From an uncultured Ignavibacteria bacterium (lineage in GTDB: Bacteria; Zixibacteria; MSB-5A5; CAIYYT01), in contig CAZKIH010000011.1 of NCBI GenBank assembly GCA_964552775.1, forward strand, positions 15,206 through 79,205: a DNA stretch of 64,000 bases, read 5' to 3'. Below, piece after piece: positions 10,046 to 60,841 of the stretch (within the stretch, counting starts at the first letter, position 1; every line of letters starts with the position of its first letter). Under the pieces are notes generated by a model that worked only from the letters and a program-made list of their open reading frames with translations, was not told the origin of the DNA and did not search any database. A program made the translations under genes and the position numbers.

Positions 10046-11419
10046 ATGCAGGAACAAATCAATGCTCTATGGGACAGGTGTCTCTCCAGCTTGTCCAAGC
10101 GCGTGAACAAGCCCTCATTCTTCACGTGGCTCAAGCCAATTCGAGTGGAATTCGTCGACGGCAATTGCTTCAACATACTCGTTCCAAATAATTTCGCGGC
10201 TCATTGGATTTCCGAGCGATATCGCCAGGCAATTAGTGAAGCGCTGGCCGAAGTCTCTGAACAGTCGTGGAATTTCGATTTCAAGATCCAGAAAGCCCCG
10301 GTGCAGGTTGAGATGTTTCCGGGCGAACCGGAGGAGGACCAACCGGCGATCATCGTCAGTGGCAATGGAAGCGGACACAACGGCCACCCAGCCCCAAAGC
10401 TGAATCCACGCTACTTATTTGAGAGCTTTGTCGTTGGTGATTCAAATCAATTCGCCTATGCTGCCTGTGAGGCTGTCTCTGAAGCCCCCGGAGAAAACCG
10501 TTATAACCCTCTCTTCATTTACGGCGGTGTCGGTCTCGGCAAGACTCACTTGGTGCAGGCGATCGGAAATGCCGTCTGCCAATCCAGTCCAAAGCTCCGC
10601 GTCATGTATGTTTCCAGCGAAAACTTCACGAACGAGTTCATTCGTTCCTTGGCCACCAAATCCGTTCACGAGTTTGCCAATCGCTATCGCACGGCTGACC
10701 TCCTTCTGTTGGATGACATTCAGTTCTTCACTGGCAAAGAATCAACCCAAGAGCAGTTCTTTCACACCTTCAATGCCCTGCATCAGGAAGGCAAGCAAAT
10801 CGTCCTGACCGCAGATCGTCCCCCGAAGGACATCCTTGGTCTCGAGGAAAGATTATTGTCGCGATTCAGCTGGGGACTGGTAGCCGATATTCAACCTCCG
10901 TCACTCGAAACCCGGGTAGCAATTCTGCAGAAGAAAGCCGAGAGTGATGGTGTCACCGTTCCCAATGACGTACTCACCTATATTGCCGATTCGATCACAT
11001 CAAATGTCCGTGAGCTTGAAGGCGCTTTGGTAAGACTCGTCGCCTATGCCTCCCTGCGCAAAAAAGAATTAACGATGTTGTTAGCCCAGGACGTCCTCAA
11101 AGACTCCATTCGCTCAAAGTCGAAGCCGGTGACCATTGAACAAATCCAGAAGGAAGTAGCGTCCTATTTCAAGATTTCTGAAGAGATGTTGAAGTCAAAA
11201 AAGAAGACTCAGGAAATTGTTACGGCACGTCAGGTGGCCATGTATCTTTGCAGAACACTAACAAGTTCATCTCTCAAACTGATTGGCATCAACTTTGGAA
11301 ATCGCGATCATTCGACTGTTATCCATGCCTGCCAACAAGTGCAGGACAATATGAAATCCTCAATGGATTTCAAATTGCAGATTGATCAACTCATCAACTT
11401 GACATGTAGTCACAAGTAG
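10046..11419 (+). CDS. dnaA: Chromosomal replication initiator DnaA
   Basis: AAA+ Walker A GGVGLGKTHL, LLLDDIQF, and the C-terminal DnaA-box-binding domain (ARQVAMYLCR...). Confidence 0.97.
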   Translation: MQEQINALWDRCLSSLSKRVNKPSFFTWLKPIRVEFVDGNCFNILVPNNFAAHWISERYRQAISEALAEVSEQSWNFDFKIQKAPVQVEMFPGEPEEDQPAIIVSGNGSGHNGHPAPKLNPRYLFESFVVGDSNQFAYAACEAVSEAPGENRYNPLFIYGGVGLGKTHLVQAIGNAVCQSSPKLRVMYVSSENFTNEFIRSLATKSVHEFANRYRTADLLLLDDIQFFTGKESTQEQFFHTFNALHQEGKQIVLTADRPPKDILGLEERLLSRFSWGLVADIQPPSLETRVAILQKKAESDGVTVPNDVLTYIADSITSNVRELEGALVRLVAYASLRKKELTMLLAQDVLKDSIRSKSKPVTIEQIQKEVASYFKISEEMLKSKKKTQEIVTARQVAMYLCRTLTSSSLKLIGINFGNRDHSTVIHACQQVQDNMKSSMDFKLQIDQLINLTCSHK

Positions 11420-11654
11420 GTGTATAACACTGTGGAAAAAATGACGGAAAAGAATTACTTCACAATCAATCCAAGTTTTCCATGTACACCAGTGTTGTTG
11501 TCAACACCACAGCAAACTCGCATGTTGTTCCATGACAAGAATATCCCTTTACAAAAAAACTTCTCCACACTACTATTATGACTATTATTCTTAGATTAAC
11601 TTAAGTTTATAACAAGAGTGCGGCGGCAATTGTGAATACTGAGGAAGCAACAAA
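11420..11654. promoter_or_regulatory. dnaA-dnaN intergenic region: candidate oriC / DNA unwinding element
   Basis: DnaA-box-like 9-mers TGTGGAAAA (11431-39), TTTTCCATG (11476-84), TTCTCCACA (11561-69). AT-rich tract 11541-11610. Confidence 0.4.
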
Positions 11655-12764
11655 ATGAAATTCACTTTAACAACTGACAAAATCCAATCAGCTCTAAGCG
11701 CGGTAATGAGTGCTGTACCGACTAAATCAACTTTGCCTATCCTTGGTAATATTCTTATGGAAGCTGATGGCAAATCTTTGAGCCTATCTGCAACTGATTT
11801 GGAGATTTCAATCACGACGTCGTTGGAAGTTAAGGCTGCCAAAAAGGGATCAGTTGCCATTCCGGCTAAGACATTTGCCGATATTATCAACGCACTTCCT
11901 CAGACTGAAATCGAAATTGAATCAGTTAATAACCGCATTGAAATGCGCTTTGGCACCGGTGATTACAAAATCTCCGGAATGTCCGCCGATGAATTTCCCA
12001 AACTTCCCGAATACGATGCTAAAAAAGAAATCCGCATTCCCGCTGATGTCGTCCGCAACTTGATTGCCAAGACCGCCTATTCGGTCTCAACCGATGAGAC
12101 TCGCCCAGCACTCAATGGCATTCTTTGGCAGACCAATGGGGAGCGGATGCGCATGGTGGCCACCGATGGTCATCGTTTGTCGCGCGCCGAGGCCGACAAC
12201 ACCAAATTGCAGGGTTTGCATGGCGATGTTATCGTCCCACCCAGAGCATTCAATCTGATCAACAAACTGGCAAGTGAGAGTGTTAGCGAGGTCGGCGTTG
12301 TATTTGGTGAAAACACCCTTGTGTTCATCTGTGGTAATAACACGATCAGCACGCGCATCATCGAAGGTCCGTACCCGAACACCGATCAGGTGATTCCTCG
12401 CAACAACGACAAGAATTTGATTGTCCCCAAAACGCTGCTGATGGAAACCCTCCGCCGCGTATCGATTCTCTCCAATTCACTGACCCGCCAGGTCAAGTTT
12501 ACCATCACGAACAATACCCTCGAACTCTCGGCAACCAATGTTGATCTTGGTGGTGAAGCTGTCGAGAAGATCCCTTGTCAGTATGATTCCGATGACTTGG
12601 AAATCGGCTACAATGCCCAGTATGTCCTCGATATCCTCAAACAGCTCGACGGCGACGAAGTGCGTTTCGCACTGTCGTCCTCAACCGCAGCCGCAGTTGT
12701 AACCTCCCTCGACGACGGCGCTGATTATCTCTGCCTGGTCATGCCACTCAGACTAGCGGACTAA
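11655..12764 (+). CDS. dnaN: DNA polymerase III beta sliding clamp DnaN
   Basis: 369 aa; canonical three-domain clamp sequence (MKFTLTTDKIQSALS..., ...LCLVMPLRL). Confidence 0.95.
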   Translation: MKFTLTTDKIQSALSAVMSAVPTKSTLPILGNILMEADGKSLSLSATDLEISITTSLEVKAAKKGSVAIPAKTFADIINALPQTEIEIESVNNRIEMRFGTGDYKISGMSADEFPKLPEYDAKKEIRIPADVVRNLIAKTAYSVSTDETRPALNGILWQTNGERMRMVATDGHRLSRAEADNTKLQGLHGDVIVPPRAFNLINKLASESVSEVGVVFGENTLVFICGNNTISTRIIEGPYPNTDQVIPRNNDKNLIVPKTLLMETLRRVSILSNSLTRQVKFTITNNTLELSATNVDLGGEAVEKIPCQYDSDDLEIGYNAQYVLDILKQLDGDEVRFALSSSTAAAVVTSLDDGADYLCLVMPLRLAD

Positions 12765-12823
12765 TGGGTGTGACGAATTCAGTCGCTCGTAGACGCTCGC
12801 TGAATGGCGAACTTAGTTGATTA

Positions 12824-13609
12824 GTAGGTCAGACATTCCTGTCTGACCAGCGACCGAAGGTCGCTCAGGGTTTGAGATGAATGATTCCCCTAGATTGAAG
12901 ATCGCGACCCGCCATTTGCCTCACTGGGAGTTGGAGGGATCCTTCTATTACATAACCTTCAGAGTCAAGCAGGGGACTCTGCATGATACGGAGGCATCTG
13001 TCCTAAGGAAACGTCTGCTTGAGGGGCACGGGAAGCACTGTCAGCTTATCGCATTCGTAATCATGCCCAATCATGTTCATCTCGTGCTGTCTCCTCGTCA
13101 GGGAATGACGCTTAGTCGGATACTCAAAGGAATAAAGGGAAAGTCCGCTCGCGAGATAAATACACTGCGAAAGACATCCGGTCCAGTATGGCAAGCCGAG
13201 TCATTTGATAGAATTATTCGGGACGAAACAGAGCTGACAGAAAAACTAAACTACATGCTCAATAATCCAGTAAGAGCGAGACTAACTGCAAATTCTTGGG
13301 AATATGAAGGTTGGTATTTCAATACCGACATTGCGGCTTCGCCGCAATGACAGGCAAGAATGTCTGTCCCACCAATACTGTTTCGCCGCGCTTTAGTAGG
13401 TCAGACATTCCTGTCTGACCAGCGACCGAAGGTCGCTCGAACATATTCAGCTTAGCGGGGTTTTGCGGGAAAGTGAGGAGTGGTACTTTAACTTTGATCT
13501 TGCGGCTTCGCCGCAATGACAGACAAGAATGTCTGTCCCACCAACGCACTGCAACGGACCTTCACAGTAGGTCAGACATTCCTGTCTGACCAGCGACCGA
13601 AGGTCGCTG
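12824..13609. mobile_element. RAYT/REP unit: REP-A, RAYT gene, then two tandem copies of (RAYT 3'-tail remnant + REP-A)
   Basis: Identical 42-nt REP-A GTAGGTCAGACATTCCTGTCTGACCAGCGACCGAAGGTCGCT at 12824-12865, 13396-13437 and 13568-13609. Duplicated tail TTGCGGCTTCGCCGCAATGACAG(G/A)CAAGAATGTCTGTCCCACCAA at 13335-13377 and 13501-13545. Confidence 0.8.
12877..13350 (+). CDS. REP-associated tyrosine transposase (RAYT, IS200/IS605-like Y1 transposase)
   Basis: HuH motif IMPNHVHLVL; catalytic Tyr region EKLNYMLNNPV. Flanked by REP hairpins. Confidence 0.85.
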   Translation: MNDSPRLKIATRHLPHWELEGSFYYITFRVKQGTLHDTEASVLRKRLLEGHGKHCQLIAFVIMPNHVHLVLSPRQGMTLSRILKGIKGKSAREINTLRKTSGPVWQAESFDRIIRDETELTEKLNYMLNNPVRARLTANSWEYEGWYFNTDIAASPQ

Positions 13610-13646
13610 AATGATCATAATTCCGAATAATACACGAGGGCGCCCC

Positions 13647-14555
13647 CTACGTTACCGCCACCGCCAGAACCAACGAGTTGTATTTCAAATCAATTGAGTC
13701 GTGTCCAGAGGTAATCACCGCCGGCACCTTGCCGCCGGTGACAATAAGACCCGCTTCGCTCTTCGTGTACATTGTGAGTGCTTTGTAAATACCATAGCTG
13801 GTCGCCAGGTTCGGACCGATCAGAATCTCGGCCTTGCCGGCGACTTCGCCTTTAGCGCCTTTTTCTTTGGCCGCGCTTTCCATCAACGCCACATCCATCG
13901 ATAGGGGACCGTCGACAAGACAATTCTTAATTTGGCCCTTGTCAACCATCTTGGAAATAACAGCCTCGACAATCGTCACCGGCATCTGTGGATAAATCAC
14001 TTCGACCGCAGCAAGCAACGCAACCTTGGGCAATGGGTTGTCCAGCTTGCGAGCAAGTGCCACGGCATTGTTAAGGATGTCAACCAGGTCCATCATTTCA
14101 GGATCAGGATTCACTATCGGATCAGAGAGTATTAACAGCCGATCCATTTGAGCGCTCTTGCAGACAAGATGCCCCGACACGAGATTCTTGGCAACGCGGA
14201 ATCCCAGCTTGCGCTCGAATAGTAACGACAGGAAATCTTTGGCACCAAATACACCCTTGCAGATTCCGCCAACCTTGCCGTCGCGAATCAGTTCGAGCGC
14301 TTGATACGCTGAATAGTTCGGCTCCGGCGAACGCACCAGTTCCCAACCGAGCACGTCAACACCGACCTCCTTGGAGGCTTTTGCGATCGCCGCCTCGTCG
14401 CCGATCATCACCGGCTTAACCAGACGATTCTTCATGGCACGATCAATCGCCTGAATCAGCTTCGGTTCGTGCGGCTCAACAAACGCGATCAATAGAGGAT
14501 CAACAGCCTTTTCGCGAGCCAGTTTTTCGATGTCAGAGAAATTCTTCAACATCAC
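13647..14555 (-). CDS. ptb: Phosphate butyryl/acetyltransferase (PTA_PTB family)
   Basis: 302 aa PTA_PTB-family fold. 4-nt overlap with the upstream paralog. Confidence 0.75.
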   Translation of the reverse strand: MMLKNFSDIEKLAREKAVDPLLIAFVEPHEPKLIQAIDRAMKNRLVKPVMIGDEAAIAKASKEVGVDVLGWELVRSPEPNYSAYQALELIRDGKVGGICKGVFGAKDFLSLLFERKLGFRVAKNLVSGHLVCKSAQMDRLLILSDPIVNPDPEMMDLVDILNNAVALARKLDNPLPKVALLAAVEVIYPQMPVTIVEAVISKMVDKGQIKNCLVDGPLSMDVALMESAAKEKGAKGEVAGKAEILIGPNLATSYGIYKALTMYTKSEAGLIVTGGKVPAVITSGHDSIDLKYNSLVLAVAVT

Positions 14556-16567: not shown

Positions 16568-17350
16568 ATGGCTTACAATAACATCATCGTAGAAATACAA
16601 GGCGCCAAGGCCACGATCACCATGAACCGTCCTAAGGCGCTCAACGCACTCAATACAGAGACCTTGCTCGAAGTTAAGCAGGCCTTCACCGAGCTTGAGA
16701 CTGGCGGTCAAGTCAGGGTCGTGATCTTTACCGGTGCCGGCGAAAAAGCCTTCATCGCCGGAGCCGACATCGGCGAGCTGAAGACGCTTGATGTCGTGAC
16801 CGGAAAGAAATTCGTCGAGACTGGTCATGCGGTGCTCGCCCAAATTGAAAACTCCAGGATCATTTCAATTTGTGCCGTCAATGGATTCGCTTTGGGTGGT
16901 GGTTGTGAGTTCATGATGGCGACGGACATTCGCGTTGCGTCAGATACAGCCAGGATGGGCCAGCCGGAAGTCAACTTGGGAATCATTCCCGGATTCGGCG
17001 GCACGCAGCGGCTATCGCGTTTGGTCGGCAAAGGTCGAGCGAAAGAGCTCACGTTCAGTGCTCGCATCATCAAGGCAGACGAAGCACTTCGTATCGGACT
17101 GGTCGAGTTCATCTATCCCGCCGATCAACTGGTTGCTGAAGCAAACAAATTGGCTGATACGATTCTCTCCAAAAGCCCGCTCGGTGTCCAGTATGCGAAG
17201 GAATTGATCAATCGCGGCGGCGATATCGACCTGGCAAATGCAAATGGCCTCGAGATTCAAGCTTTCGCCGCCTTGTGCGCGACGGACGACAAGACCGAGG
17301 GCCTCGGCGCGTTTCTCGAAAAACGCGACGCCAAGTTTACAGGAAAGTAG
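16568..17350 (+). CDS. crt: Enoyl-CoA hydratase (crotonase)
   Basis: Crotonase fold with AGADI..., GGGCE..., and the GQPE oxyanion region. Confidence 0.9.
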
Positions 17351-17606
17351 GGTAGATTCGGCAGAATCTACTGCCGGTGCCCGCAGCCGCTGATTCGGCG
17401 CGAAGATAGATGAGAGGAATGGGGAATCGGGCTATAGCGCGATTCCCAATCGGGTTGTGCTACGTGAATGGGTCATGCGAGCTAACAGCTACCCTGTACG
17501 CTGGGACGTACTTCGCCCCGCATCAATTATTGCCCTGAAAACGATCTTCATCAAATAGCTGGCAAATACCGGCTCCTGAGTCCCGGTCCAGTTCAGGTGG
17601 GCTGAC

Positions 17607-46539: not shown

Positions 46540-46690
46540 GAGTCCGTAGGGGCGCGGTCTGCGCGCCCATAGATTGCAAGTGAGCGTCAGTTGTAGGTCA
46601 GGAGCCCCGCGCTCCTGACATCCGCTAGTGATGATCATGGTTGGCGTTGCAGTGCCTGGCACACACCCTCGTGTGCCACGTAATGTCAAA
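46540..46690. repeat. Cluster of REP-like palindromes
   Basis: GGGGCGCGgtctGCGCGCCC. GTAGGTCAGGAGCcccgcGCTCCTGAC (shares the GTAGGTCAG head with REP-A). GGCACACAccctcGTGTGCC. Confidence 0.55.
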
Positions 46691-47551: not shown

Positions 47552-49009
47552 CTAGTAGGATTTGAACGGAGTTCCAGTCAAGCTAAGGAACCACAGAATT
47601 ACAAGTCCCACGGAAAGAATCGACTGAATGCCAGCAACGGGCCTTACCCAACCTCTTGCTATTAAGTCAATTTCACGGCGGGTTAAGAGCCGAATCCAAC
47701 GACCAAAATTCACTTCTCGAAATCCTATATTAAATGCTGACATTGCCGAGAAAAACAGAGACCACCATATCATCCGAACAGGCATTGGCCAATTGCTGAA
47801 TGAATTGGGCCATACTGCCTTTAATTTGCCCTCCGTAGTCCTTAACGGGATTGCCGTAGGCACGGCATTTGTTCTGGGCCGCCTACTCGACCATTTCTGT
47901 CCATACCCGGATTCAATGAGATAGAGTCCCCCCGGTCCCTTTAGAAGTGTTGACACAAAGTATATACAACTTGCAAGAAACCAAAGTAAGCCAACGATAC
48001 GCCAAGGCCGCCAGAGATTGCTCCCCCACTCGCACGTGTAGTCAAATAGTAAGTACTCCCACCATGTTTGAGAACAACGCCTAATCGAACAAATGACTTT
48101 TCGCTCTGCTTTGGCCAGTCCCAATTCGTGGAACCGTCCTTGTAATGCTACCAGGCCATTCGGTCGCACCCGGTATCGCAAGCTATCTAGGCCACGCGCA
48201 AAGGCCATCGTCTCGACATTCGGCAGCGAATCGATCTCGAAAATGGCTCCTGATAATTCCACATCAAACAAGTCCGCTCGCGAAAGGTTTGCTCCCAAAA
48301 GGCTGGCTCCTCTCAAGCTGGTTGAGGGAAGAGGCACTTCAGTTTCAGTTTTGTTTCCTTTGGAGAATTGAGTAATCAAATACTGGCTGTGGGAGGCAGT
48401 GATTCCAGCTAAGTTCGAGCTATCAAGCTTGCACCCAGTGAAGTCGGTGCAATAAAGTTCAGCCTCTGAAAGGTTGGCTCCGGTCAAATCGGAGGTCCGA
48501 AATGATGTCTGCATCATACGAGAGGTAGACATCCTTGCGCCTCTGAGACTCGAGTTCTCAAACGCAAGGTACGATAGATCGACACCCGCCAACACAACAC
48601 TATCTAAGATGGCATTGTCGAAGACGAAGATTTTGGCGACCACACTATCTCTTGCGGACTTGAGTCCTCTATCTTGCTTTAAAAGTGAATCGAGTTCTGC
48701 TCTTGTACGTCGAAGAGAGTCAGGATCCTCACGAAATCGCCAACTCCATTCGGCACAATTGGCGATGGGTACCATTATGCACATTAGTGCAGTGACAAGA
48801 CAGAAGGCTCTTATATTGACACGATTCAGGATAGACTGACGCACAGTAGCACCGCTCAGCTCAAATGTAACATTTGTCGAGTTCCGCGTTGCGTCCTGAC
48901 TTTTTCGGGACTCCACTGTGAACACCGACCTACAACTCTCGACCATTTTGCCGGCGTTGGCAAAATGGTCAGCATTTTGTTTTGCATTCACCGCGGGGCG
49001 CATCGCCAT
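47552..49009 (-). CDS. Pentapeptide-repeat protein with C-terminal multi-TM domain
   Basis: Tandem A(D/N)LxxA pentapeptide repeats (ANLSEAELYCTDFTGCKLDSSNLAG...). Hydrophobic C-terminal ~150 aa. Confidence 0.65.
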   Translation of the reverse strand: MAMRPAVNAKQNADHFANAGKMVESCRSVFTVESRKSQDATRNSTNVTFELSGATVRQSILNRVNIRAFCLVTALMCIMVPIANCAEWSWRFREDPDSLRRTRAELDSLLKQDRGLKSARDSVVAKIFVFDNAILDSVVLAGVDLSYLAFENSSLRGARMSTSRMMQTSFRTSDLTGANLSEAELYCTDFTGCKLDSSNLAGITASHSQYLITQFSKGNKTETEVPLPSTSLRGASLLGANLSRADLFDVELSGAIFEIDSLPNVETMAFARGLDSLRYRVRPNGLVALQGRFHELGLAKAERKVICSIRRCSQTWWEYLLFDYTCEWGSNLWRPWRIVGLLWFLASCIYFVSTLLKGPGGLYLIESGYGQKWSSRRPRTNAVPTAIPLRTTEGKLKAVWPNSFSNWPMPVRMIWWSLFFSAMSAFNIGFREVNFGRWIRLLTRREIDLIARGWVRPVAGIQSILSVGLVILWFLSLTGTPFKSY

Positions 49010-49048
49010 GCGCCCCTACGCGAAGCTCAACGATTTGTCGGGTGACGG

Positions 49049-51523
49049 CTACACCTCTAACTCCGCCTGGTCTCCATTGTCGCCATTCCCGTTCTCATCA
49101 TCTTCAGCGATAATGCGCGCAACATCCGTGACACGGTCGCCCGGCTCGAGATTAATCAACTTGACGCCCTGCGTCGCGCGGCCAATCACTCGAATCGACT
49201 TGATGTCCTGGCGGATGACAATGCCCTTTTCGGTGATGATCATCAGCCCATCCTTGTCGACGACCTCTTTCACCGCAATCACGTTGCCGGTCTTGTCAGT
49301 CGTCTTCATGTTGATCACGCCCTTGCCGCCGCGGTTGGTGACACGGTACTCGGAAATTTCCGAGCGCTTGCCGAAACCGAATTCGGCGACGGTCAGAATC
49401 GAAGTGTCGCGCTTGACCACGACCATGCCGACAACGTAATCCTTTGTCTCGAGTTCAATCCCCTTGACACCGTACGCAGTGCGACCCATCGCGCGCACCT
49501 TGTTCTCCTCGAAGCGAATCGCCTGGCCCTCGTGGGTGGCGAGAATGATGTCGTTGTTGCCGTCGGAGATATCGACCTCGATCAGGATGTCATCATCCGG
49601 AATGTCGATCGCCTTGATACCGTCGCGCCGCGGATTCGAGAAGGCCGGCAGTTCCGTCTTCTTGATAATGCCGTTGCGCGTGGCCATGACGACGAACTTG
49701 CCCTCCTCAAAACTGCGTACCGGAACGAATGCACAGATTTTCTCGGCTTCGACCAACTCGACCATGTTGACCACCGGCTTGCCCTTGGCAAGTTTGCCGC
49801 CGACCGGAACCTCGTGAACCTTGATCCAATAGGCCTTGCCCTTGGTCGAGAAGAAGAGAATGTAGTCGTGCGTCGAGGCAATAAACAAGTGCTCGACGAA
49901 ATCCTCTTCCTTGACGTTGATCCCAATCGATCCGCGGCCGCCGCGATTCTGTTTGCGATAGGCCGAGGTCGACAGTCGCTTGATATAGCCCTGATGGCTG
50001 ATAGTGATGACCATGTCCTCTTCGGCGATCAAGTCTTCGATCGAGATTTCTTCCTCGGCATCGACGATTTCCGTGCGCCGTTCGTCGCCGTACTTCTCTT
50101 TCATCTCAACCAGTTCAGTTTTGATGATCTGCATGCGCATATCGTGACTCGCAAGCACCGACTTGAGGTACTCGATCTGCTGAATCAGGTCTCGGTATTC
50201 GTCCTCGATCTTCTGGCGTTCCAGACCGGTCAGGCGTTGCAAACGCATCTCGAGAATAGCCTGTGCCTGGATCTCCGAAAGCTTGAATCGCGACATGAGA
50301 TTTTCTTTGGCTTCCGGAACAGTCTTGGAAGCGCGAATCGTCGAGATAATCGCGTCTATATGGTCGAGCGCGATACGCAGGCCCTCAAGAATATGCGCGC
50401 GTTCCTCGGCTTTCTTAAGATCATACTTGGCGCGCCTGATAACCACTTCATGCCGATGCTTGAGGAACTCCTCGAGCATCGATCGCAGCGGCAACACCTT
50501 CGGAGCGCCGTCGACAAGCGAGATCATGATCACACCAAACGTCGACTGCATCTGCGTGTGCTTGAACAACTGGTTGAGCACGATCTGCGGTTGGATATCG
50601 CGTTTCAGTTCGATCACGATCCTCATGCCGTCGCGATCAGATTCATCGCGCAGGTCGGAAATGTCTTCGACGACTTTGTTGCGCACGAGATCGGCGATCT
50701 TTTCGATCAAATTCGACTTATTGACTTGATACGGGATCTCCGAAATGACAATCTGCTCTTTGCCGTTCTTGAGTTTTTCGACGTTGGCCTTGGCTCGAAC
50801 ATTGATGCGACCCCGTCCGGTGCGATACGCGTCGCGGATGCCATCGCGGCCGTAGATAATACCGCCGGTCGGAAAATCGGGACCGGAGACATACTTGAGA
50901 AGAAGCTCATTATCAATCGCTGGATTATCAATCACCGCCACCAACGCATCCACGATTTCACGCAGGTTGTGCGGCGGTATGTTCGTCGCCATGCCGACAG
51001 CGATACCCGAGGACCCATTGCAAAGCAAGTTCGGAAACTTGCCAGGCAGCACACGCGGTTCGCGCAAGGTTTCGTCGTAGTTGGGCATGAAATCGACGGT
51101 ATCTTTTTCGAGATCGGCCAGCATCTCCATCGCGATCGCCGTCAGACGCGCCTCGGTGTATCGCATGGCGGCGGCATCATCGCCGTCGACCGAGCCGAAG
51201 TTGCCCTGGCCGTCGACCAGCGGGTAGCGCATGTTGAAATCCTGCGCCATGCGCACCAGCGTCGGATAGACGACCTGTTCGCCGTGCGGGTGGTAGTTGC
51301 CCGAGGTGTCGCCGCAGATTTTGGCGCATTTACGATGCGGCCGGTCGGGGGCGAGATTGAGATCGTTCATGGCGATCAGGATGCGGCGGTTCGAGGGTTT
51401 GAGCCCGTCGCGCACATCGGGCAGCGCGCGCGAGGTGATGACGGACATGGAGTAGTCGAGATAGGAGGATTTCATCTCCTCCTCGAGGTAAACCGATATC
51501 AGATTTTCGCGATTGAGTACCAT
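49049..51523 (-). CDS. gyrA: DNA gyrase subunit A
   Basis: 824 aa; active-site region with the catalytic Tyr; C-terminal beta-pinwheel repeats. Confidence 0.97.
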   Translation of the reverse strand: MVLNRENLISVYLEEEMKSSYLDYSMSVITSRALPDVRDGLKPSNRRILIAMNDLNLAPDRPHRKCAKICGDTSGNYHPHGEQVVYPTLVRMAQDFNMRYPLVDGQGNFGSVDGDDAAAMRYTEARLTAIAMEMLADLEKDTVDFMPNYDETLREPRVLPGKFPNLLCNGSSGIAVGMATNIPPHNLREIVDALVAVIDNPAIDNELLLKYVSGPDFPTGGIIYGRDGIRDAYRTGRGRINVRAKANVEKLKNGKEQIVISEIPYQVNKSNLIEKIADLVRNKVVEDISDLRDESDRDGMRIVIELKRDIQPQIVLNQLFKHTQMQSTFGVIMISLVDGAPKVLPLRSMLEEFLKHRHEVVIRRAKYDLKKAEERAHILEGLRIALDHIDAIISTIRASKTVPEAKENLMSRFKLSEIQAQAILEMRLQRLTGLERQKIEDEYRDLIQQIEYLKSVLASHDMRMQIIKTELVEMKEKYGDERRTEIVDAEEEISIEDLIAEEDMVITISHQGYIKRLSTSAYRKQNRGGRGSIGINVKEEDFVEHLFIASTHDYILFFSTKGKAYWIKVHEVPVGGKLAKGKPVVNMVELVEAEKICAFVPVRSFEEGKFVVMATRNGIIKKTELPAFSNPRRDGIKAIDIPDDDILIEVDISDGNNDIILATHEGQAIRFEENKVRAMGRTAYGVKGIELETKDYVVGMVVVKRDTSILTVAEFGFGKRSEISEYRVTNRGGKGVINMKTTDKTGNVIAVKEVVDKDGLMIITEKGIVIRQDIKSIRVIGRATQGVKLINLEPGDRVTDVARIIAEDDENGNGDNGDQAELEV

Positions 51524-51689
51524 GGTTATGTCTCTATGTTAAGGTAAGGAGAATTTCATATTCATTTGATTCGTAGGTCGGGTTCGCAGCGCAGCGCCGA
51601 ACCCGACATCTGTTCGTGTGTTCTCGTTCAATTGACAAGTTTCACGTTCTGCCTGCCTTCGGCGGCTCCACTGGGAATCCGATCTATAA

Positions 51690-51756
51690 CTACTCTCCGT
51701 AATCGCCCTCGAAGATGGGAGGGAAAATTTGACCCCAATCGGGCCGATACAGTTGG
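51690..51756 (-). pseudogene. 3'-terminal fragment of a RAYT gene
   Basis: Encodes ...LYRPDWGQIFPPIFEGDYGE, matching the C-terminus (GLYRPDWGQIDPPKFEGDYGE) of the intact RAYT at 52119-52190. Confidence 0.6.
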
Positions 51757-52118
51757 TAGGTCGGGTTCGCAGCGCAGCGCCGAACCCGACATCTATTTCT
51801 CATTGAAAAGTCGTCTCTCAATTTCTGTATAGTGCTTGTTACCCTTGATTGTTGTTGGAGTGACAATCGAATGTGACATCTCGAAGCGGCAATTGTCAGA
51901 CGAAAAGATATGCCAATGTTCACTTTGTTCCGGGTCAACCAAAAGGTCTTCCAGTTGCTGCTTCAATTGTCTTGCCTCACTTACAGTCAAGTACAATTGC
52001 AGATTTCGGATGGATTGGCTTCTCTCAACATCCAACATTCTCATCGTGAATACTCCCTATTGTCGGGTTCCGTGCTTCGCTGGGAACCCGACCTACAATC
52101 TACCTCTGCGCGCTACAA

Positions 52119-52598
52119 TTACTCGCCGTAGTCGCCTTCAAATTTCGGCGGGTCAATTTGACCCCAATCGGGCCGATACAGTCCTTCGGCCACATACTTG
52201 CCAAACGACGAATGTTGCCACGCAATGGCGCTTGAAGACAACTTGTGTTTGACCGGATTGTAATGAATGTAATTCAAGTGGTTATTCATTTCGTCCTGAT
52301 CGCGGATGACGTGATCCCAGAAGCGATTGTGCCATACGCGACCATCGCGATAGTTCATACGAAATCTCGCGGCATACTTCACCTTGAATCGATGCATGAT
52401 ATTCGAGATGTTCTCATTGCCGCAGTTTAACATGACATGCAAATGATCAGGCGTCAAAACCCATGCATAGGGTATCACGGTGCTCCAGCATTCCCCAAAG
52501 AGATTGGGATTGTTGAGAAGCAATGGTTCGCGATCATAGGTCACGATTGTCAAGAAGTAATCGTGATTAGCAAGGTCGTATCGTCGCAAAGTCTTCAT
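52119..52598 (-). CDS. REP-associated tyrosine transposase (RAYT), second copy, distinct family
   Basis: HuH motif VLTPDHLHVML; NHLNYIHYNPVKH Tyr region. Confidence 0.85.
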   Translation of the reverse strand: MKTLRRYDLANHDYFLTIVTYDREPLLLNNPNLFGECWSTVIPYAWVLTPDHLHVMLNCGNENISNIMHRFKVKYAARFRMNYRDGRVWHNRFWDHVIRDQDEMNNHLNYIHYNPVKHKLSSSAIAWQHSSFGKYVAEGLYRPDWGQIDPPKFEGDYGE

Positions 52599-52672
52599 GG
52601 CTCAATCGTGTCGGGTTCTGCGCATTGCTGGGAACCCGACCTACGGGCTGATCAACCCGCAACCCCCACGTC

Positions 52673-54625
<1,953 letters not shown>

Positions 54626-54630
54626 TTATC

Positions 54631-54921
54631 TCAAGTAAAATAGATATCCGTAACGATCGTATCGCCAAGCCGCGTGTTCAGCTTGTCAATCATCTCAGCC
54701 TTGGTGTAATTGAGTTCCTGCCGCCACGCCGATGATGCCACACGCACCGTAAGTACGCCGCGCTCAATTTGAATGGCCTGCGCCTTCGCAGCGATTTTCT
54801 CACCAACCACCTCGGCAAAAACATGAACCGCTTCAAACTCGCGAATTCTGCGGTCCAAACCGAGATTCGTAAAGGTCCGTTTTAGAACTTTGCCAATGGA
54901 TTCCGCACGTCGCAACATCAA
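54631..54921 (-). CDS. DUF721-family protein (DciA-like, candidate helicase-loading factor) between recF and gyrB
   Basis: 96 aa. Position equivalent to Bacillus yaaB/remB. Confidence 0.55.
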   Translation of the reverse strand: MMLRRAESIGKVLKRTFTNLGLDRRIREFEAVHVFAEVVGEKIAAKAQAIQIERGVLTVRVASSAWRQELNYTKAEMIDKLNTRLGDTIVTDIYFT

Positions 54922-55069
54922 TTCCCACCGCTAAATAAGCTATTAATATACGATTTTATGCCCTCGACAGGCAAGATAAAACTCCCCGCAGGCGGGCTTT
55001 TTCGCCGTCACAATCGATTGTCAGGCAATGAGTTAAAAAGTAGCTACATTTTGTCGATTTTTGGTAATC

Positions 55070-56182
55070 CTAACTTTCAATTTTCAACAACCGTCCATTG
55101 ACAACAGCAATTTCAGCCTGTATTGATGCGGTCTCCCGCAATTCTGCTGGATTGGCTGTTGTGAGGAAAACCTGCCCCAATTGCGGAAGCGACTTCATCA
55201 GCGCTGCTAACCGGTTTGGGTCAAGATCGCTCGCAATTTCGTCCAATAGCAGCAACGGCGCATCGTGTAATCGCTCCGTCAAGTAGTCGTAGATCGCGAA
55301 TTTGATTGCCAGAGCCGCCGACTTGGCCTCGCCCTGCGATGCATAGCCCCGCATTGGCTCCGAATTCAGGTTGATACTGACATCGTCGCGGTGCGGTCCG
55401 GTTGAGGTTGAACCCATATAGAGATCGCGCTTGCGCGAGGATGTCAACTTCAACAGGAAATTTTGCGGCGCCGATGGATCAACAGTAATCGATGACTCGT
55501 ACCGCCACGACAACACGCTGTTGCCCGACTCGATCGTGCGATAATAACCGGCCAGCCGGTCCGTGGCGGCGCTGATCATCGCCATCCGTTTGCCGTTCAC
55601 CCGGGCTCCGACCGCGGCGAGCTGACCGTCCCAAACATCAAGCATCTCAAAGTCCGTTGGAGAATCCTCGCCGATCTCAAATTCTTTCAACAGAGAATTA
55701 CGCTGAGCGAGAATTCGATTGTATTCGAGCAGGTCATTGAGATAAGTCCTGTCGGCCTGTGATAGATAGAGGTCGAGTAATCGCCTGCGCACCGCCGGTG
55801 CGCCATAAATCAGTTCCGTATCCTCGGGAATATACGACACCGCGTGGAAATAATCGAAAAGATCGGCCACCCGGGTCAGCTTGATACCGTCAGCCTTGAT
55901 TTGCCTCTTTAGTCCGGCGCCCCAGGCTATTTCAATCGTCGTTTCACGACCATTGATCAGGCCGTCGACCTCGATTCGACACACATCCGCGGTCTTGCGC
56001 ATCAACACATCATCACTCGCCGTGCGAAATGACCGCGCCGTGCAAGCAAAGAATATCGCCTCAATAATCGAGGTCTTGCCTGAACCGTTTGGCCCGCCAA
56101 TCAAGTTGACTGATGGCTGCGGCGAAAACCCCAATTCAGAGACATTTCGAAAATTGACCAACTTGACACGCGTGAGATGCAT
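55070..56182 (-). CDS. recF: DNA replication and repair protein RecF
   Basis: Walker A GPNGSGKTS; SMC-like signature; Walker B LLLLDE. Confidence 0.95.
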   Translation of the reverse strand: MHLTRVKLVNFRNVSELGFSPQPSVNLIGGPNGSGKTSIIEAIFFACTARSFRTASDDVLMRKTADVCRIEVDGLINGRETTIEIAWGAGLKRQIKADGIKLTRVADLFDYFHAVSYIPEDTELIYGAPAVRRRLLDLYLSQADRTYLNDLLEYNRILAQRNSLLKEFEIGEDSPTDFEMLDVWDGQLAAVGARVNGKRMAMISAATDRLAGYYRTIESGNSVLSWRYESSITVDPSAPQNFLLKLTSSRKRDLYMGSTSTGPHRDDVSINLNSEPMRGYASQGEAKSAALAIKFAIYDYLTERLHDAPLLLLDEIASDLDPNRLAALMKSLPQLGQVFLTTANPAELRETASIQAEIAVVNGRLLKIES

Positions 56183-56252
56183 GACAACATGTAAAGACAG
56201 GTGATCGTGTTTGGCAATCAGTTTTGGAAACGAGCGGATGTACGCCGGTGGT

Positions 56253-56837
56253 CTACGAGGAAAGAAGAGTCTCGGTCAATTGCGCCAACAGGTGCAACGC
56301 AAAGATGTGTTCTTCCTGAATACGCATGGTTGTGGTCGAAGGTACATTGAGCGCCAGATTGCACAAGTCCGGTTCGGACAAACCGGCCTCGCCAAACAAC
56401 CCAAGCGTTACCAGCTTGCGCGCATTGGCAGCTCGGAAAGCCTCGATGATATTCCGGGATCTTCCTGAAGTCGAAATGCCAATGAACACATCCCCGGCGG
56501 TCCCGTATGCCTCCACTTGTCGGCTGAAGACGTGTTCAAACCCGTAGTCGTTGGACGCAGCCGTGAGAATCGATGTATCGGTCGTCAGCGCGATTGCCGG
56601 CAGGGCCCGTCTATCGTTGTCAGAGGTCAATCGCACTACGAACTCGGCAGCAAAATGTTGGCAATCTGCAGCGGATCCGCCGTTTCCGGCAATAAGTACC
56701 TTCCTGCCGTGATTAAGTGCGGCTGCGAGCTCGTCAGATGCCGCCAACAGCCACTCTTCGCGCTTGAGGCTGAAAGCGTTCTTGAGCGATATCGCGTCGC
56801 TCACGGCTCCCGCGATAATCTGTTTACGACTGGTCAT
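56253..56837 (-). CDS. SIS-domain protein (GmhA phosphoheptose isomerase / DiaA-like)
   Basis: LIAGNGGSAADCQHFAAE motif. The longer ORF start at 56885 would overlap the upstream gene by 62 nt; the internal Met is preferred. Confidence 0.7.
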   Translation of the reverse strand: MTSRKQIIAGAVSDAISLKNAFSLKREEWLLAASDELAAALNHGRKVLIAGNGGSAADCQHFAAEFVVRLTSDNDRRALPAIALTTDTSILTAASNDYGFEHVFSRQVEAYGTAGDVFIGISTSGRSRNIIEAFRAANARKLVTLGLFGEAGLSEPDLCNLALNVPSTTTMRIQEEHIFALHLLAQLTETLLSS

Positions 56838-57549: not shown

Positions 57550-57706
57550 AAATCCGGCGCCTCGGGTTCGTGCGATATCGCTAAGATGGTCAAATGTCTT
57601 TGTCAGTTGTTCCTCGCAAATTGCATCCTGGTCATCTCTCTCTCAATCAGCTCGTCTCCACTCAGCGTGTGGCGAGATTCAGTCGGAGCTCGATTTGCAA
57701 ACTAAG

Positions 57707-57752
57707 TCATTCCGGCGAAAGCCGGAATCCAGCTTCGTTTCCAACATGCAAA
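57707..57752. repeat. 46-nt hairpin repeat GTCATTCCGGCGAAAGCCGGAATCCAGCTTCGTTTCCAACAT (copy 1), followed by a REP-B-like element at 57823-57856
   Basis: Near-identical second copy at 60583-60628. Contains the palindrome TTCCGGCGAAAGCCGGAA. Confidence 0.7.
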
Positions 57753-57861
57753 TCTCGTCGATTCACAGTTGGATGGTCCATTAACACGCCCTCAGCAGGC
57801 GGATTTTATGGGCGCAGTCAATAGCTCGGGAACGCAGCGCAGCGACGAACCCGACACTTTG

Positions 57862-60495: not shown

Positions 60496-60582
60496 TCTTC
60501 ACTTCGCTCAGGCGGGCTACCGGATTCTTGTCTCCAATTTCATCGGAGCCCAGACCGAACCCCGATCCAAAATCGAGTGAGT

Positions 60583-60797
60583 CATTCCCGCGAAAGCGGG
60601 AATCCAGCTTCGTTTCCAACATTCGATCCACACCATTGCGCAGTCGAATGATCTTTGAAAATGCGTTCAGAACGCGAATGTGACGGGCGCGGGAACCGCT
60701 ACCCTACACGACAATCAACGAATACTGGATATCTGTGCTATGTCGGGCTTCTCCCACGTCACGCCTGCGGCGTTCCTCGCTCGGAATCCGACCTACG
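60583..60797. repeat. Hairpin repeat copy 2 plus a REP-B-like palindrome (GTCGGGCTTCTCC...GGAATCCGACCTAC)
   Basis: Same composite arrangement as on the other side of alaS. Confidence 0.65.
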
Positions 60798-60841
60798 GAA
60801 TTCCCACGTTGCACGACACTCCGGGCGATCTACCAGCTGCC

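What the first reader, a model, noticed from the sequence alone, without database searches (positions are those of the whole stretch)
12765..13646. RAYT with REP hairpins and tandemly duplicated 3' tail immediately downstream of dnaN
A Y1/HuH transposase of the REP-associated class is bracketed by three identical 42-nt REP-A double hairpins (GGTCAGACA-ttcc-TGTCTGACC and AGCGACC-gaa-GGTCGCT). The last 45 nt of the gene, together with the TTGCGGCttcGCCGCAA hairpin, are duplicated along with the REP. This suggests local REP/tail amplification, and it sits at the dnaN-side breakpoint of the dnaA-dnaN/recF-gyrB synteny.
Basis: seen in the sequence. Interest (0 to 1): 0.55.

Follow-up and report, generated by a model that had tools for sequence, protein, structure and literature searches.

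The report
REP-associated transposase with decayed second copy
This is an ordinary REP-associated tyrosine transposase gene with its hairpin repeats, sitting in an insertion hot spot after dnaN in a Zixibacteria genome; the "duplicated tail" is the leftover 3' end of a second, diverged transposase copy rather than a fresh amplification.

Summary
ORF 12877-13350 is a RAYT/TnpA_REP: it passes the curated HMM cutoff, and its predicted fold best matches E. coli TnpA_REP (4ER8). Three identical GTAG-footed double hairpins (REP-A) lie at 12824, 13396 and 13567. The second unit (13396-13542) is a REPIN/MITE-like shell holding about 20 relic RAYT codons. The relic differs from RAYT1 mainly at synonymous sites (p~4e-4). 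It is therefore the remnant of a once-functional second copy, not a recent amplification. A second RAYT (52119-52598, between gyrB and gyrA) has its own REP family and the same kind of relic. In the genus JADJGC01 (Zixibacteria) the dnaN|ptb junction occurs empty (12 nt), or holds an M48 peptidase, a HEC-01-like defence pair, or a REPIN array with an IS256-disrupted RAYT. The dnaN/recF split therefore predates RAYT1. REP-A in its 42-nt form was found nowhere else. Its first hairpin belongs to a REP family spread across many phyla that accompanies this RAYT clade. Verdict: a new member of a known kind, of modest interest.

The parts
11655..12764 (+). dnaN (DNA polymerase III beta), left flank of the insertion site
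   Evidence: TIGR00663 at 324.9 bits.
12824..12865 (+). REP-A1. It has a GTAG foot (12824-12827), hairpin 1 GGTCAGACA-ttcc-TGTCTGACC (12827-12848) and hairpin 2 AGCGACC-gaa-GGTCGCT (12849-12865). It is the left end of the RAYT1 unit.
12877..13350 (+). RAYT1, a REP-associated tyrosine transposase (157 aa). Motifs: N65-H-V-H68, W105-Q106, D111, R112, R115 and Y126-MLNNP131.
13331..13375 (-). A*1, an inverted and diverged REP-A. Read on the - strand it is GTGG foot + GACAGACA-ttct-TGCCTGTC + TTGCGGC-gaa-GCCGCAA. Its inner hairpin overlaps the last 6 codons and the stop codon of RAYT1. It is the right end of the RAYT1 unit.
   Evidence: (I2-I4).
13396..13437 (+). REP-A2, identical to REP-A1. It is the left end of the second, gutted unit.
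13439..13519 (+). Relic of the 3' end of a second RAYT gene. In frame it reads EHIQLSGVLRESEEWYFNFDLAASPQ*. Homology to RAYT1 is clear from 13467 onward. There is no start codon, and a stop lies in frame upstream inside REP-A2.
13500..13544 (-). A*2, the second inverted REP-A-like double hairpin (44/45 identical to A*1).
13567..13608 (+). REP-A3, a solo copy 38 nt before the stop of the convergent ptb gene.
13647..14555 (-). Phosphate butyryl/acetyl-transferase-like gene (PTA_PTB), right flank of the insertion site.
   Evidence: Relatives show the same flank.
52119..52598 (-). RAYT2, a second RAYT of a different subclass (DHLH / YIHYNP / SS tail), lying between gyrB and gyrA.
   Evidence: NCBIfam REP_Tyr_transpos 97.1 bits against a cutoff of 80. 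4ER8 at E 1.4e-14. 32% identical to RAYT1 over 82 aligned residues.
51573..52644 (.). REP-B family (GTAGGTCGGGTTC...GAACCCGAC). Copies lie at 52610-52644 and 52062-52096 (- orientation) and at 51756-51790 and 51573-51607 (+ orientation). The region encloses RAYT2, an 83-aa ORF (51793-52044, -) and the RAYT2 relic.
51690..51753 (-). Relic of a RAYT2-like 3' end (LYRPDWGQIFPPIFEGDYGE*), followed by a degenerate REP-B. It is absent from the orthologous loci of relatives.
   Evidence: (D6).

Best explanation
The locus is a REPtron: a class-2 HUH/Y1 single-strand DNA endonuclease/transposase gene (RAYT1) framed by its cognate hairpin repeats. It occupies a recurrent insertion hot spot between the convergent genes dnaN and ptb in a Zixibacteria (genus JADJGC01) genome.

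Anatomy (shown). The order is [GTAG-hp1-hp2] RAYT1 [hp2'-hp1'-CCAC], a spacer, [GTAG-hp1-hp2] a roughly 20-codon RAYT relic [hp2'-hp1'-CCAC], a spacer, then [GTAG-hp1-hp2]. This amounts to one intact unit, one internally gutted unit with the same inverted double-hairpin ends (REPIN/MITE-like, 148 bp), and one solo left end.

Mechanism (inferred from the E. coli TnpA_REP and IS200/IS605 paradigm). RAYT1 would bind the folded hairpins on single-stranded DNA. It would read the GT[AG]G foot through the W105/Q106/D111/R112/R115 cluster. It would then cut and rejoin through Y126, with H66/H68 holding the metal.

History (inferred). The whole unit was duplicated in tandem, most simply by unequal recombination between the directly repeated REP-A copies 572 nt apart. 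Both genes then evolved for a long time under purifying selection while the hairpins stayed fixed. A deletion running from the 3' edge of REP-A2 then removed all but the last ~20 codons of copy 2. The same sequence of events happened independently at the RAYT2 locus.
For: Family membership:
- RAYT1 passes the curated HMM cutoff.
- The AlphaFold model (pLDDT 88.8) best matches TnpA_REP bound to a REP hairpin (4ER8, TM 0.73). IS200, IS608 and ISDra2 TnpA reach TM about 0.5.
- H66, H68, W105, D111, R115, Y126 and N130 are invariant in 17 homologues, and R112 is conserved in at least 90% of them.
- The W/Q/D/R/R spacing (offsets 0, 1, 6, 7, 10) equals that of the E. coli GTAG-contact residues W94/Q95/E100/H101/R104.

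Hairpins:
- They fold far better than shuffled sequence.
- A* is the inverse of REP-A. Hairpin 1 is 83% identical. Hairpin 2 has the same size and loop but a fully different, still complementary stem (direct reading).

Cognate pairing:
- 72 of 80 metagenomic loci of this RAYT clade have a GT[AG]G-footed perfect hairpin within 400 nt.
- 51 of those 80 have the xCAGRCA..TGYCTG stem.

Relics:
- Both show synonymous-biased divergence: 5 synonymous vs 4 non-synonymous codons at locus 1, and 7 vs 2 at locus 2. Each gives p about 4e-4.
- The C-terminal AASPQ* encoded by hp2' is shared only by RAYT1 and the relic.

Intermediate stage seen elsewhere:
- L211 has two intact tandem RAYTs 73% identical in protein, each with its own REPs.
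- L219 has a 12-aa tail relic plus an inverted REP upstream of an intact RAYT.

Hot spot:
- Five occupancy states of the dnaN|ptb junction occur in the genus.
- One of them is a RAYT 55-57% identical to RAYT1, with REPIN arrays (L138).
Against: - REP-A in its 42-nt form occurs only at this locus in the 64-kb window.
- It is absent from JGI metagenomes.
- It is absent from the 137 external hairpin-1 hits inspected.
- Dispersal of the cognate REP in this genome, a defining property of REP/RAYT systems, is therefore not shown.
- No activity data exist.
- The order of events (duplication, then divergence, then deletion) is inferred from one end state. The unalignable spacers between A* and REP-A fit equally well with two elements that arrived separately.
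- The sequence comes from a metagenome-assembled contig, and read support for the tandem structure was not checked.
Confidence: 0.72

Rival explanations
1. The tail plus REP was recently amplified in place, by RAYT activity or by replication slippage between hairpins, and the second copy has simply been decaying since.
For: Hairpin blocks are 98-100% identical between the copies. Tandem REP or REPIN arrays flank RAYTs in relatives: L138 has 5 copies at about 94 nt and 3 more downstream, L090 has 4 at 54 nt, and L111 has 3 at 101 nt.
Against: The coding part of the copy is only about 61% identical. Its differences are biased to synonymous sites (p = 4e-4 at each of the two loci), which is not expected for a dead duplicate. 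The A*-to-REP-A spacers are unalignable.
Confidence: 0.1
2. The second unit (REP-A2, relic, A*2; 148 bp) is a non-autonomous mobile element, a REPIN or MITE still carrying a scrap of its parent transposase. It transposed next to RAYT1, which is attracted to REP sites, rather than being formed there by deletion.
For: - It has the same inverted double-hairpin ends as the intact unit, with feet outward. That is the geometry of the REPIN doublets in L123 and L138.
- The sequence outside the units (the spacers) is unrelated, as expected for separate insertions.
- REPINs in relatives accumulate at this very intergenic site.
Against: No second copy of the unit or of its relic exists in the window. 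No copy was found in any fetched locus, and the REP-A junction pattern gave 0 hits in JGI metagenomes. The RAYT2 relic has a different geometry: tail + direct REP + inverted REP.
Confidence: 0.15
3. This is an assembly artefact. Two strain alleles of the REPtron were threaded in series through the shared REP repeats during metagenome assembly.
For: The source is a MAG contig (one search shows one NCBI contig of 106,711 bp). The relics look like allelic variants evolving under purifying selection. Both RAYT loci of the same contig show the feature, while none of 8 comparator loci does. Assemblies of relatives often break at these REPs.
Against: The junctions (REP-A2 directly followed by codon ~135 of a RAYT; inverted REP-B directly followed by a mid-gene RAYT2 codon) share no long k-mer with the intact genes, so each must exist in some real molecule. 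39% nucleotide divergence in the tail, next to identical hairpins, is far beyond strain-level variation. Similar relic or tandem states occur in unrelated assemblies (L211, L219).
Confidence: 0.05
4. The hairpins serve mainly the host, for example as bidirectional terminators or mRNA stabilisers between the convergent dnaN and ptb genes, and the RAYT is incidental.
For: REPs generally sit downstream of convergent or co-directional genes and are thought to be transcribed (Di Nocera 2013, PMC3733652). REP-A3 lies 38 nt from the ptb stop.
Against: No intrinsic-terminator-like site was found and there is no Rfam match. A relative has the same gene pair with a 12-nt spacer and no hairpin. The hairpins carry the GT[AG]G foot and co-occur with this RAYT clade in 72 of 80 loci.
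Confidence: 0.05

Closest known systems
E. coli TnpA_REP (RAYT, yafM) and its REPtron (Nunvar 2010 PMC2817692; Messing 2012 PMC3479197, PDB 4ER8)
   Same: It has the HUH/Y1 core, the Y-x3-NP tyrosine motif and the W-Q...R cluster at the positions that contact GTAG. The predicted fold best matches 4ER8 (TM 0.73). The gene is framed by hairpins with a 5' GT[AG]G foot in inverted orientation.
   Different: Only 18% sequence identity to 4ER8. The REPs here are double hairpins (a 9-bp stem plus a 7-bp stem). The 3' REP overlaps the stop codon. No dispersed REP population is shown in this genome. The phylum is different (Zixibacteria).
TnpA_Y1 subclasses 2.4 and 2.7 of Quentin et al. 2018 (PMC6006769); 2.4 = RAYT Group 4 of Bertels et al. 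2017 (PMC5581495)
   Same: - The motifs NHVH / WQ / Y-M-L-N-N-P fit 2.4 (NH[IFV]H, WQ, YIxNNP) and 2.7 ([ND]HVH, WQ, YI[LR][NQ]NP).
- The REPs are long, canonical and GT[AG]G-footed.
- The distribution is patchy and multi-phylum, including Caldilineae.
- Flanking-repeat abundance is low.
[quoted passage not shown]
   Different: I could not run their subclass HMMs, so 2.4 versus 2.7 is unresolved. D111/R112 in place of E100/H101 is reported for 2.5 and 2.7. Zixibacteria were not in their sample as far as I could read.
REPINs (Bertels & Rainey 2011, PMC3116915) and MITE/PATE-type deletion derivatives of IS200/IS605
   Same: The second unit is two inverted REPs around a short spacer, next to the RAYT. 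True REPIN doublets with 19-22 nt spacers sit at the same site in relatives (L123, L138).
   Different: The spacer contains a recognisable RAYT 3' end, and only one copy of the unit is known.
IS200/IS605 TnpA
   Same: Same superfamily and fold, with subterminal hairpins at both ends of the gene.
   Different: - The tyrosine motif is Y-x3-NP, not Y-x3-Q.
- The NCBIfam IS200 model scores 28.1 against a cutoff of 55.
- There is no tnpB.
- There are no identical copies: the 90% cluster is a singleton and the nearest protein is 57% identical.

Membership tests
RAYT / TnpA_REP (class 2 TnpA_Y1) | HUH motif and a single catalytic Tyr in a Y-x3-NP motif | tested here: met
   N65-H66-V67-H68 and Y126-M-L-N-N130-P131 are read directly from the sequence. 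H66, H68, Y126 and N130 are invariant in 17 homologues. Class 2 signature as in Quentin 2018.
RAYT / TnpA_REP (class 2 TnpA_Y1) | Scores above the curated family model cutoff | tested here: met
   NF047646 REP_Tyr_transpos: RAYT1 90.2 bits and RAYT2 97.1 bits, cutoff 80.
RAYT / TnpA_REP (class 2 TnpA_Y1) | TnpA_REP fold | tested here: met
   Model pLDDT 88.8. The top PDB match is 4ER8 (E 5.4e-9, TM 0.73/0.70), ahead of IS200/IS608/ISDra2.
RAYT / TnpA_REP (class 2 TnpA_Y1) | Residues that read the GTAG guide (E. coli W94, Q95, E100, H101, R104) | tested here: met
   W105, Q106, D111, R112 and R115 have identical spacing. W, D111 and R115 are invariant and R112 is conserved in at least 90% of the clade. 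This rests on sequence pattern only, not on a structural superposition.
RAYT / TnpA_REP (class 2 TnpA_Y1) | Gene flanked by hairpins with a 5' GT[AG]G foot (REPtron arrangement) | tested here: met
   REP-A1 lies upstream (GTAG) and A*1 downstream, inverted (GTGG). 72 of 80 clade loci elsewhere show such hairpins.
RAYT / TnpA_REP (class 2 TnpA_Y1) | Cognate REP family dispersed in many copies through the same genome | tested here: inconclusive
   There are 0 copies outside the locus in 64 kb. There were 0 hits in JGI metagenomes for the 42-nt form. Hairpin 1 alone is dispersed in other genomes, e.g. 22 stretches in Chloroflexota bin_187 and 5 in Zixibacteria RBG_16_43_9.
RAYT / TnpA_REP (class 2 TnpA_Y1) | Low copy number and largely vertical inheritance | tested here: inconclusive
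   There is no second RAYT1 copy in the window. A RAYT sits at the same dnaN|ptb site in L138 but is only 55-57% identical. Other genus members lack it. RAYT2, by contrast, is conserved after gyrB in relatives.
RAYT / TnpA_REP (class 2 TnpA_Y1) | Cleaves and rejoins single-stranded REP DNA | not testable with these tools
   Needs biochemistry.
IS200/IS605 transposase (class 1) | Y-x3-Q tyrosine motif, family HMM above cutoff, multiple near-identical copies | tested here: not met
   The tyrosine motif is YMLNNP. NF033573 scores 28.1 against a cutoff of 55. The cluster is a singleton with the nearest protein at 57%.
REPIN | Two inverted REPs with a short spacer, present as a replicating population | tested here: inconclusive
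   The geometry is met by 13396-13542, but only one copy is known.

The most novel reading that the evidence does not exclude
The second unit would be a REPIN caught at birth: a RAYT element gutted by an internal deletion that kept both hairpin ends and about 20 codons of the transposase. That would be direct sequence evidence for the proposed origin of REPINs from the ends of an IS200-like ancestor. The fact that both RAYTs of this genome carry such relics would point to a lineage in which REPtrons are still turning over. More broadly, this RAYT clade and its CAGACA-stem REP travel together across many phyla. They repeatedly sit in frame, transposase included, inside host genes (Type ISP/IIG restriction-modification enzymes, RecG). 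As far as I could find, that has been described for REPs but not for the RAYT gene itself.
Probability: 0.2. Interest if true: 0.55.

Novelty: new member of a known kind. Interest (0 to 1): 0.3.

Why it matters
As it stands the finding adds a Zixibacteria example to a well-described class (RAYT/REPtron), so its direct value is annotation.

Three side results could matter more:
- Two independent RAYT loci in one genome each retain a selection-shaped relic of a second copy. This bears on how REPtrons duplicate, diverge and decay, and on how REPINs arise.
- The convergent dnaN|ptb junction next to the replication genes is a multi-state insertion hot spot in the genus JADJGC01.
- Relatives of RAYT1 are embedded in frame in restriction-modification and RecG genes in several phyla.

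Tried and rejected
- Exact look-up of RAYT1's contig failed twice, so neither the genome nor a genome-wide REP-A count could be obtained.
None came from the source genome (no megablast match), and none carried the second hairpin.
- The JGI metagenome scan for the junction of hairpins 1 and 2 gave 0 hits.
- Rfam gave no match at E<=1. There were no terminator-like sites, and the single promoter-like site was at chance level.
- I looked for a REP at the recF-side "breakpoint" (56183-56260) and found none. That spacer is about 80 nt and abuts a SIS-domain gene (direct reading).
- I looked for remnants of the M48 peptidase gene that occupies the site in relatives and found none in the window.
- A loose GT[AG]G-hairpin census was uninformative (20 hits against about 15 in shuffles). 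The strict version (perfect stem of at least 9 bp) gave 9 against 0.11 expected.
- A search for tail relics in 8 comparator loci found none. Among 80 metagenomic loci, most "hits" were REP-encoded peptides, not relics. The real cases are L211 (a tandem pair) and L218/L219.
- Literature search for the hairpin sequence itself returned only unrelated primer matches.
- I first treated L121-L125 as strain-level relatives because DnaN is 96% identical. Nucleotide identity is only about 77%, so they are genus-level.

Full report
**1. What is in the sequence**

Between the stop of dnaN (12764) and the stop of a convergent PTA_PTB gene (13647) lie 882 bp. They hold one ORF, 12877-13350 (+, 157 aa).
- The ORF matches Pfam Y1_Tnp.
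- It scores 90.2 bits on NCBIfam REP_Tyr_transpos (cutoff 80). The IS200 model stays below its cutoff at 28.1 against 55.
None is expected by chance, and none occurs elsewhere in the 64-kb window.
- As single-stranded DNA it folds into the two adjacent hairpins described (z = -8.2).

**2.

The "tail" block (13331-13375, repeated at 13500-13544 with one mismatch) is itself a REP-A in inverted orientation.
- Read on the minus strand it is GTGG + GACAGACA-ttct-TG(C/T)CTGTC + A + TTGCGGC-gaa-GCCGCAA.
- REP-A reads GTAG + GTCAGACA-ttcc-TGTCTGAC + C + AGCGACC-gaa-GGTCGCT.
- The foot and first hairpin are 83% identical.
- The second hairpin has the same length and loop but a completely different, still self-complementary stem (direct reading).

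RAYT1 therefore has inverted double-hairpin ends with the GT[AG]G feet outward, which is the REPtron layout. The next unit, REP-A2 + 62 nt + A*2 (13396-13542), has the same ends around a short interior. REP-A3 is a solo left end.

**3. The protein**

- A 17-sequence alignment shows H66, H68, W105, E108, D111, R115, Y126 and N130 invariant.
- The motifs NHVH / WQ / YMLNNP fit class 2 of Quentin et al. 2018, closest to subclasses 2.4 and 2.7. Subclass 2.4 is Group 4 of Bertels et al. 2017, which is common in Caldilineae and scattered over 17 classes.
- W105, Q106, D111, R112 and R115 have the same spacing as the E. coli GTAG-contact residues.
- An AlphaFold model (pLDDT 88.8) matches TnpA_REP bound to its REP (4ER8) best, with TM 0.73. 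IS200-type transposases reach about 0.5.

Membership in the RAYT family is supported by sequence, motifs, fold and flanks. The one defining feature I could not show is a dispersed cognate REP population in this genome.

**4. The REP family elsewhere**

- The hits come from Chloroflexota (22 stretches in one MAG), Caldilinea, Zixibacteria, Ignavibacteria, Bacteroidota, Planctomycetota, Latescibacterota, Acidobacteriota and others.
- The hairpin is usually paired with an inverted GAACAGACA..TGTCTGTTCTACC partner.
- None of the external copies has REP-A's second hairpin, and JGI metagenomes hold no copy of the junction of hairpins 1 and 2.

The association also holds in the other direction. Among 80 metagenomic loci encoding RAYT1 relatives (43-59% identity), 72 have a GT[AG]G-footed perfect hairpin within 400 nt. 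Of the 80, 51 have the xCAGRCA..TGYCTG stem. The pairing of this RAYT clade with this REP type is thus general. The 42-nt double-hairpin version is, so far, private to this locus.

**5. The duplicated tail**

- The relic reads in frame ...LSGVLRESEEWYFNFDLAASPQ*, against RAYT1's ...ARLTANSWEYEGWYFNTDIAASPQ*.
- In the 11 codons before the conserved hairpin there are 13 nucleotide differences. Five codons change synonymously and four non-synonymously. Random placement of 13 substitutions gives at least 5 synonymous codons with p = 4e-4.
- The relic therefore spent most of its divergence as a working gene.
- The AASPQ* end, encoded by the inner hairpin, is shared only by RAYT1 and the relic among all homologues. 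The parent was thus a close paralogue.
- The spacers between A* and the next REP-A do not align.
- The relic starts within a few nucleotides of the 3' edge of REP-A2.

The simplest history has three steps:
1. Tandem duplication of the unit between directly repeated REP-A copies (572-nt period).
2. Long divergence with the hairpins held constant.
3. A deletion from the REP-A2 edge into copy 2.

I infer this history; it is not shown. An intermediate stage exists elsewhere. L211 carries two intact tandem RAYTs 73% identical, each with its own REPs. L219 has a 12-aa tail relic plus an inverted REP upstream of an intact RAYT.

**6. A second locus with the same feature**

RAYT2 (52119-52598, -) lies between gyrB and gyrA.
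- It scores 97.1 bits on the same NCBIfam model, matches 4ER8 at E 1.4e-14, and has DHLH/YIHYNP motifs of subclass 2.2 type.
- It has its own REP-B family (GTAGGTCGGGTTC...GAACCCGAC; four good copies at the locus and two degenerate ones near alaS).
- It also has a 3' relic (51690-51753) with 7 synonymous and 2 non-synonymous codon changes (p = 4e-4).
- Relatives at about 89% nucleotide identity keep RAYT2 after gyrB but lack the relic and one inverted REP-B.
- None of 8 comparator loci has such a relic.

Two relics in one contig is unusual. I cannot exclude an assembly contribution, but the junctions have no shared long k-mer that would produce them.

**7. The synteny claim**

The window holds dnaA-dnaN at 10-12.8 kb. 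recF-dciA(DUF721)-gyrB-RAYT2-gyrA lies at 49-56 kb on the other strand, so the canonical cluster is indeed split at the dnaN 3' end. The organism belongs to Zixibacteria, genus-level group JADJGC01.

In that group the dnaN|ptb junction is found in five states:
- Empty, with a 12-nt spacer (L136, L137).
- With an M48 peptidase and one to four REPs of the same superfamily (L121-L123, L125).
- With a HEC-01-like AbiL/AriA ATPase pair (L124, L126).
- With arrays of REPIN doublets and a RAYT 55-57% identical to RAYT1. That RAYT is split by an IS256-family element with an 8-bp target duplication (L138).
- With RAYT1, in the window.

The split from recF is therefore older than, and independent of, RAYT1. 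The site is an insertion hot spot, and a RAYT has lived there in at least two lineages.

**8. Verdict**

This is a RAYT/REPtron of a known class in a new phylum. It has a gutted second unit, not a fresh amplification. I rate it a new member of a known kind, with interest 0.3. The most novel defensible reading is that the second unit is a proto-REPIN and that this clade embeds itself in frame in host genes. That reading rests on single-copy evidence here and on side observations in other loci.

Noticed in passing
window 51570-52645: A second REPtron lies here: RAYT2 (52119-52598, -) between gyrB and gyrA, with its own REP-B hairpins in both orientations. It has a 3' relic of a RAYT2-like gene (51690-51753). 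An 83-aa ORF of unknown function (51793-52044, -) is enclosed by an inverted REP-B pair. In relatives that ORF carries a 130-nt internal deletion.
   Followed up: yes
L015:2365-7293, L141:211-4056, L142:61-4053, L144:202-1800, L090, L113, L213:1444-3951, L143:97-1554: Relatives of RAYT1, together with their REPs, lie in frame with no stop codons inside long host ORFs. Six cases are Type ISP/IIG-like restriction-modification enzymes; Pfam confirmed N6_Mtase + Eco57I + Type_ISP_C in L015, L141 and L142 and Type_ISP_C in L144, while L090 and L113 are assigned from sequence motifs and were not scanned. The insertions sit at at least two different positions. One is in a RecG helicase between the DEAD and Helicase_C domains, and one is fused to the C-terminus of ThiE. 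In-frame REP insertions are known (Rickettsia RPEs; Di Nocera 2013). I found no description of the RAYT gene itself being embedded.
   Followed up: partly
L121-L126, L135-L139 (dnaN downstream region in genus JADJGC01): The convergent dnaN|ptb junction is a multi-state hot spot. It is found empty (12 nt), or holding an M48 peptidase, a HEC-01-like defence pair (AbiL/AriA-type ATPase plus a ~190-aa partner), a REPIN array with an IS256-disrupted RAYT, or RAYT1.
   Followed up: yes
window 57705-57815 and 60580-60690: A 111-nt repeat (74% identity) flanks alaS on both sides. It contains the hairpin TCATTCC(G/C)GCGAAAGC(C/G)GGAATCCAG. This is a different small palindromic element, unrelated to the GTAG REPs. 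Degenerate REP-B copies sit next to it (57818-57862, 60761-60800).
   Followed up: no
window 17347-17371, 46593-46619, 48995-49019: Three further single GTAG-footed perfect hairpins with unrelated stems lie in intergenic positions at gene ends. In all there are 9 GT[AG]G-footed perfect hairpins with stems of at least 9 bp in 64 kb, against 0.11 expected; 17347-17371 has an 8-bp stem and is additional to that count.
   Followed up: partly
window 10046-12764 and 49049-56182: The canonical dnaA-dnaN-recF-gyrB-gyrA cluster is split. recF-dciA-gyrB-(RAYT2)-gyrA is inverted and lies 36-43 kb from dnaN, preceded by a SIS-domain (GmhA/DiaA-like) gene at about 56260-56835 (-). The layout is consistent with an old inversion. 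GC skew in the window shows no clear switch.
   Followed up: partly
L138:6990-8440: An IS256-family transposase gene (Transposase_mut, 431 aa) is inserted inside the RAYT of a relative, after the WQAES motif, with an 8-bp target duplication CCGAGTCT.
   Followed up: yes
L090 about 4060-4100: A REP (GGGACAGACAAGAATGTCTGTCCTAC) is inserted in frame inside a RAYT gene between the HUH and Tyr motifs. This is the feature Quentin et al. 2018 describe as unique to subclass 2.4.
   Followed up: no
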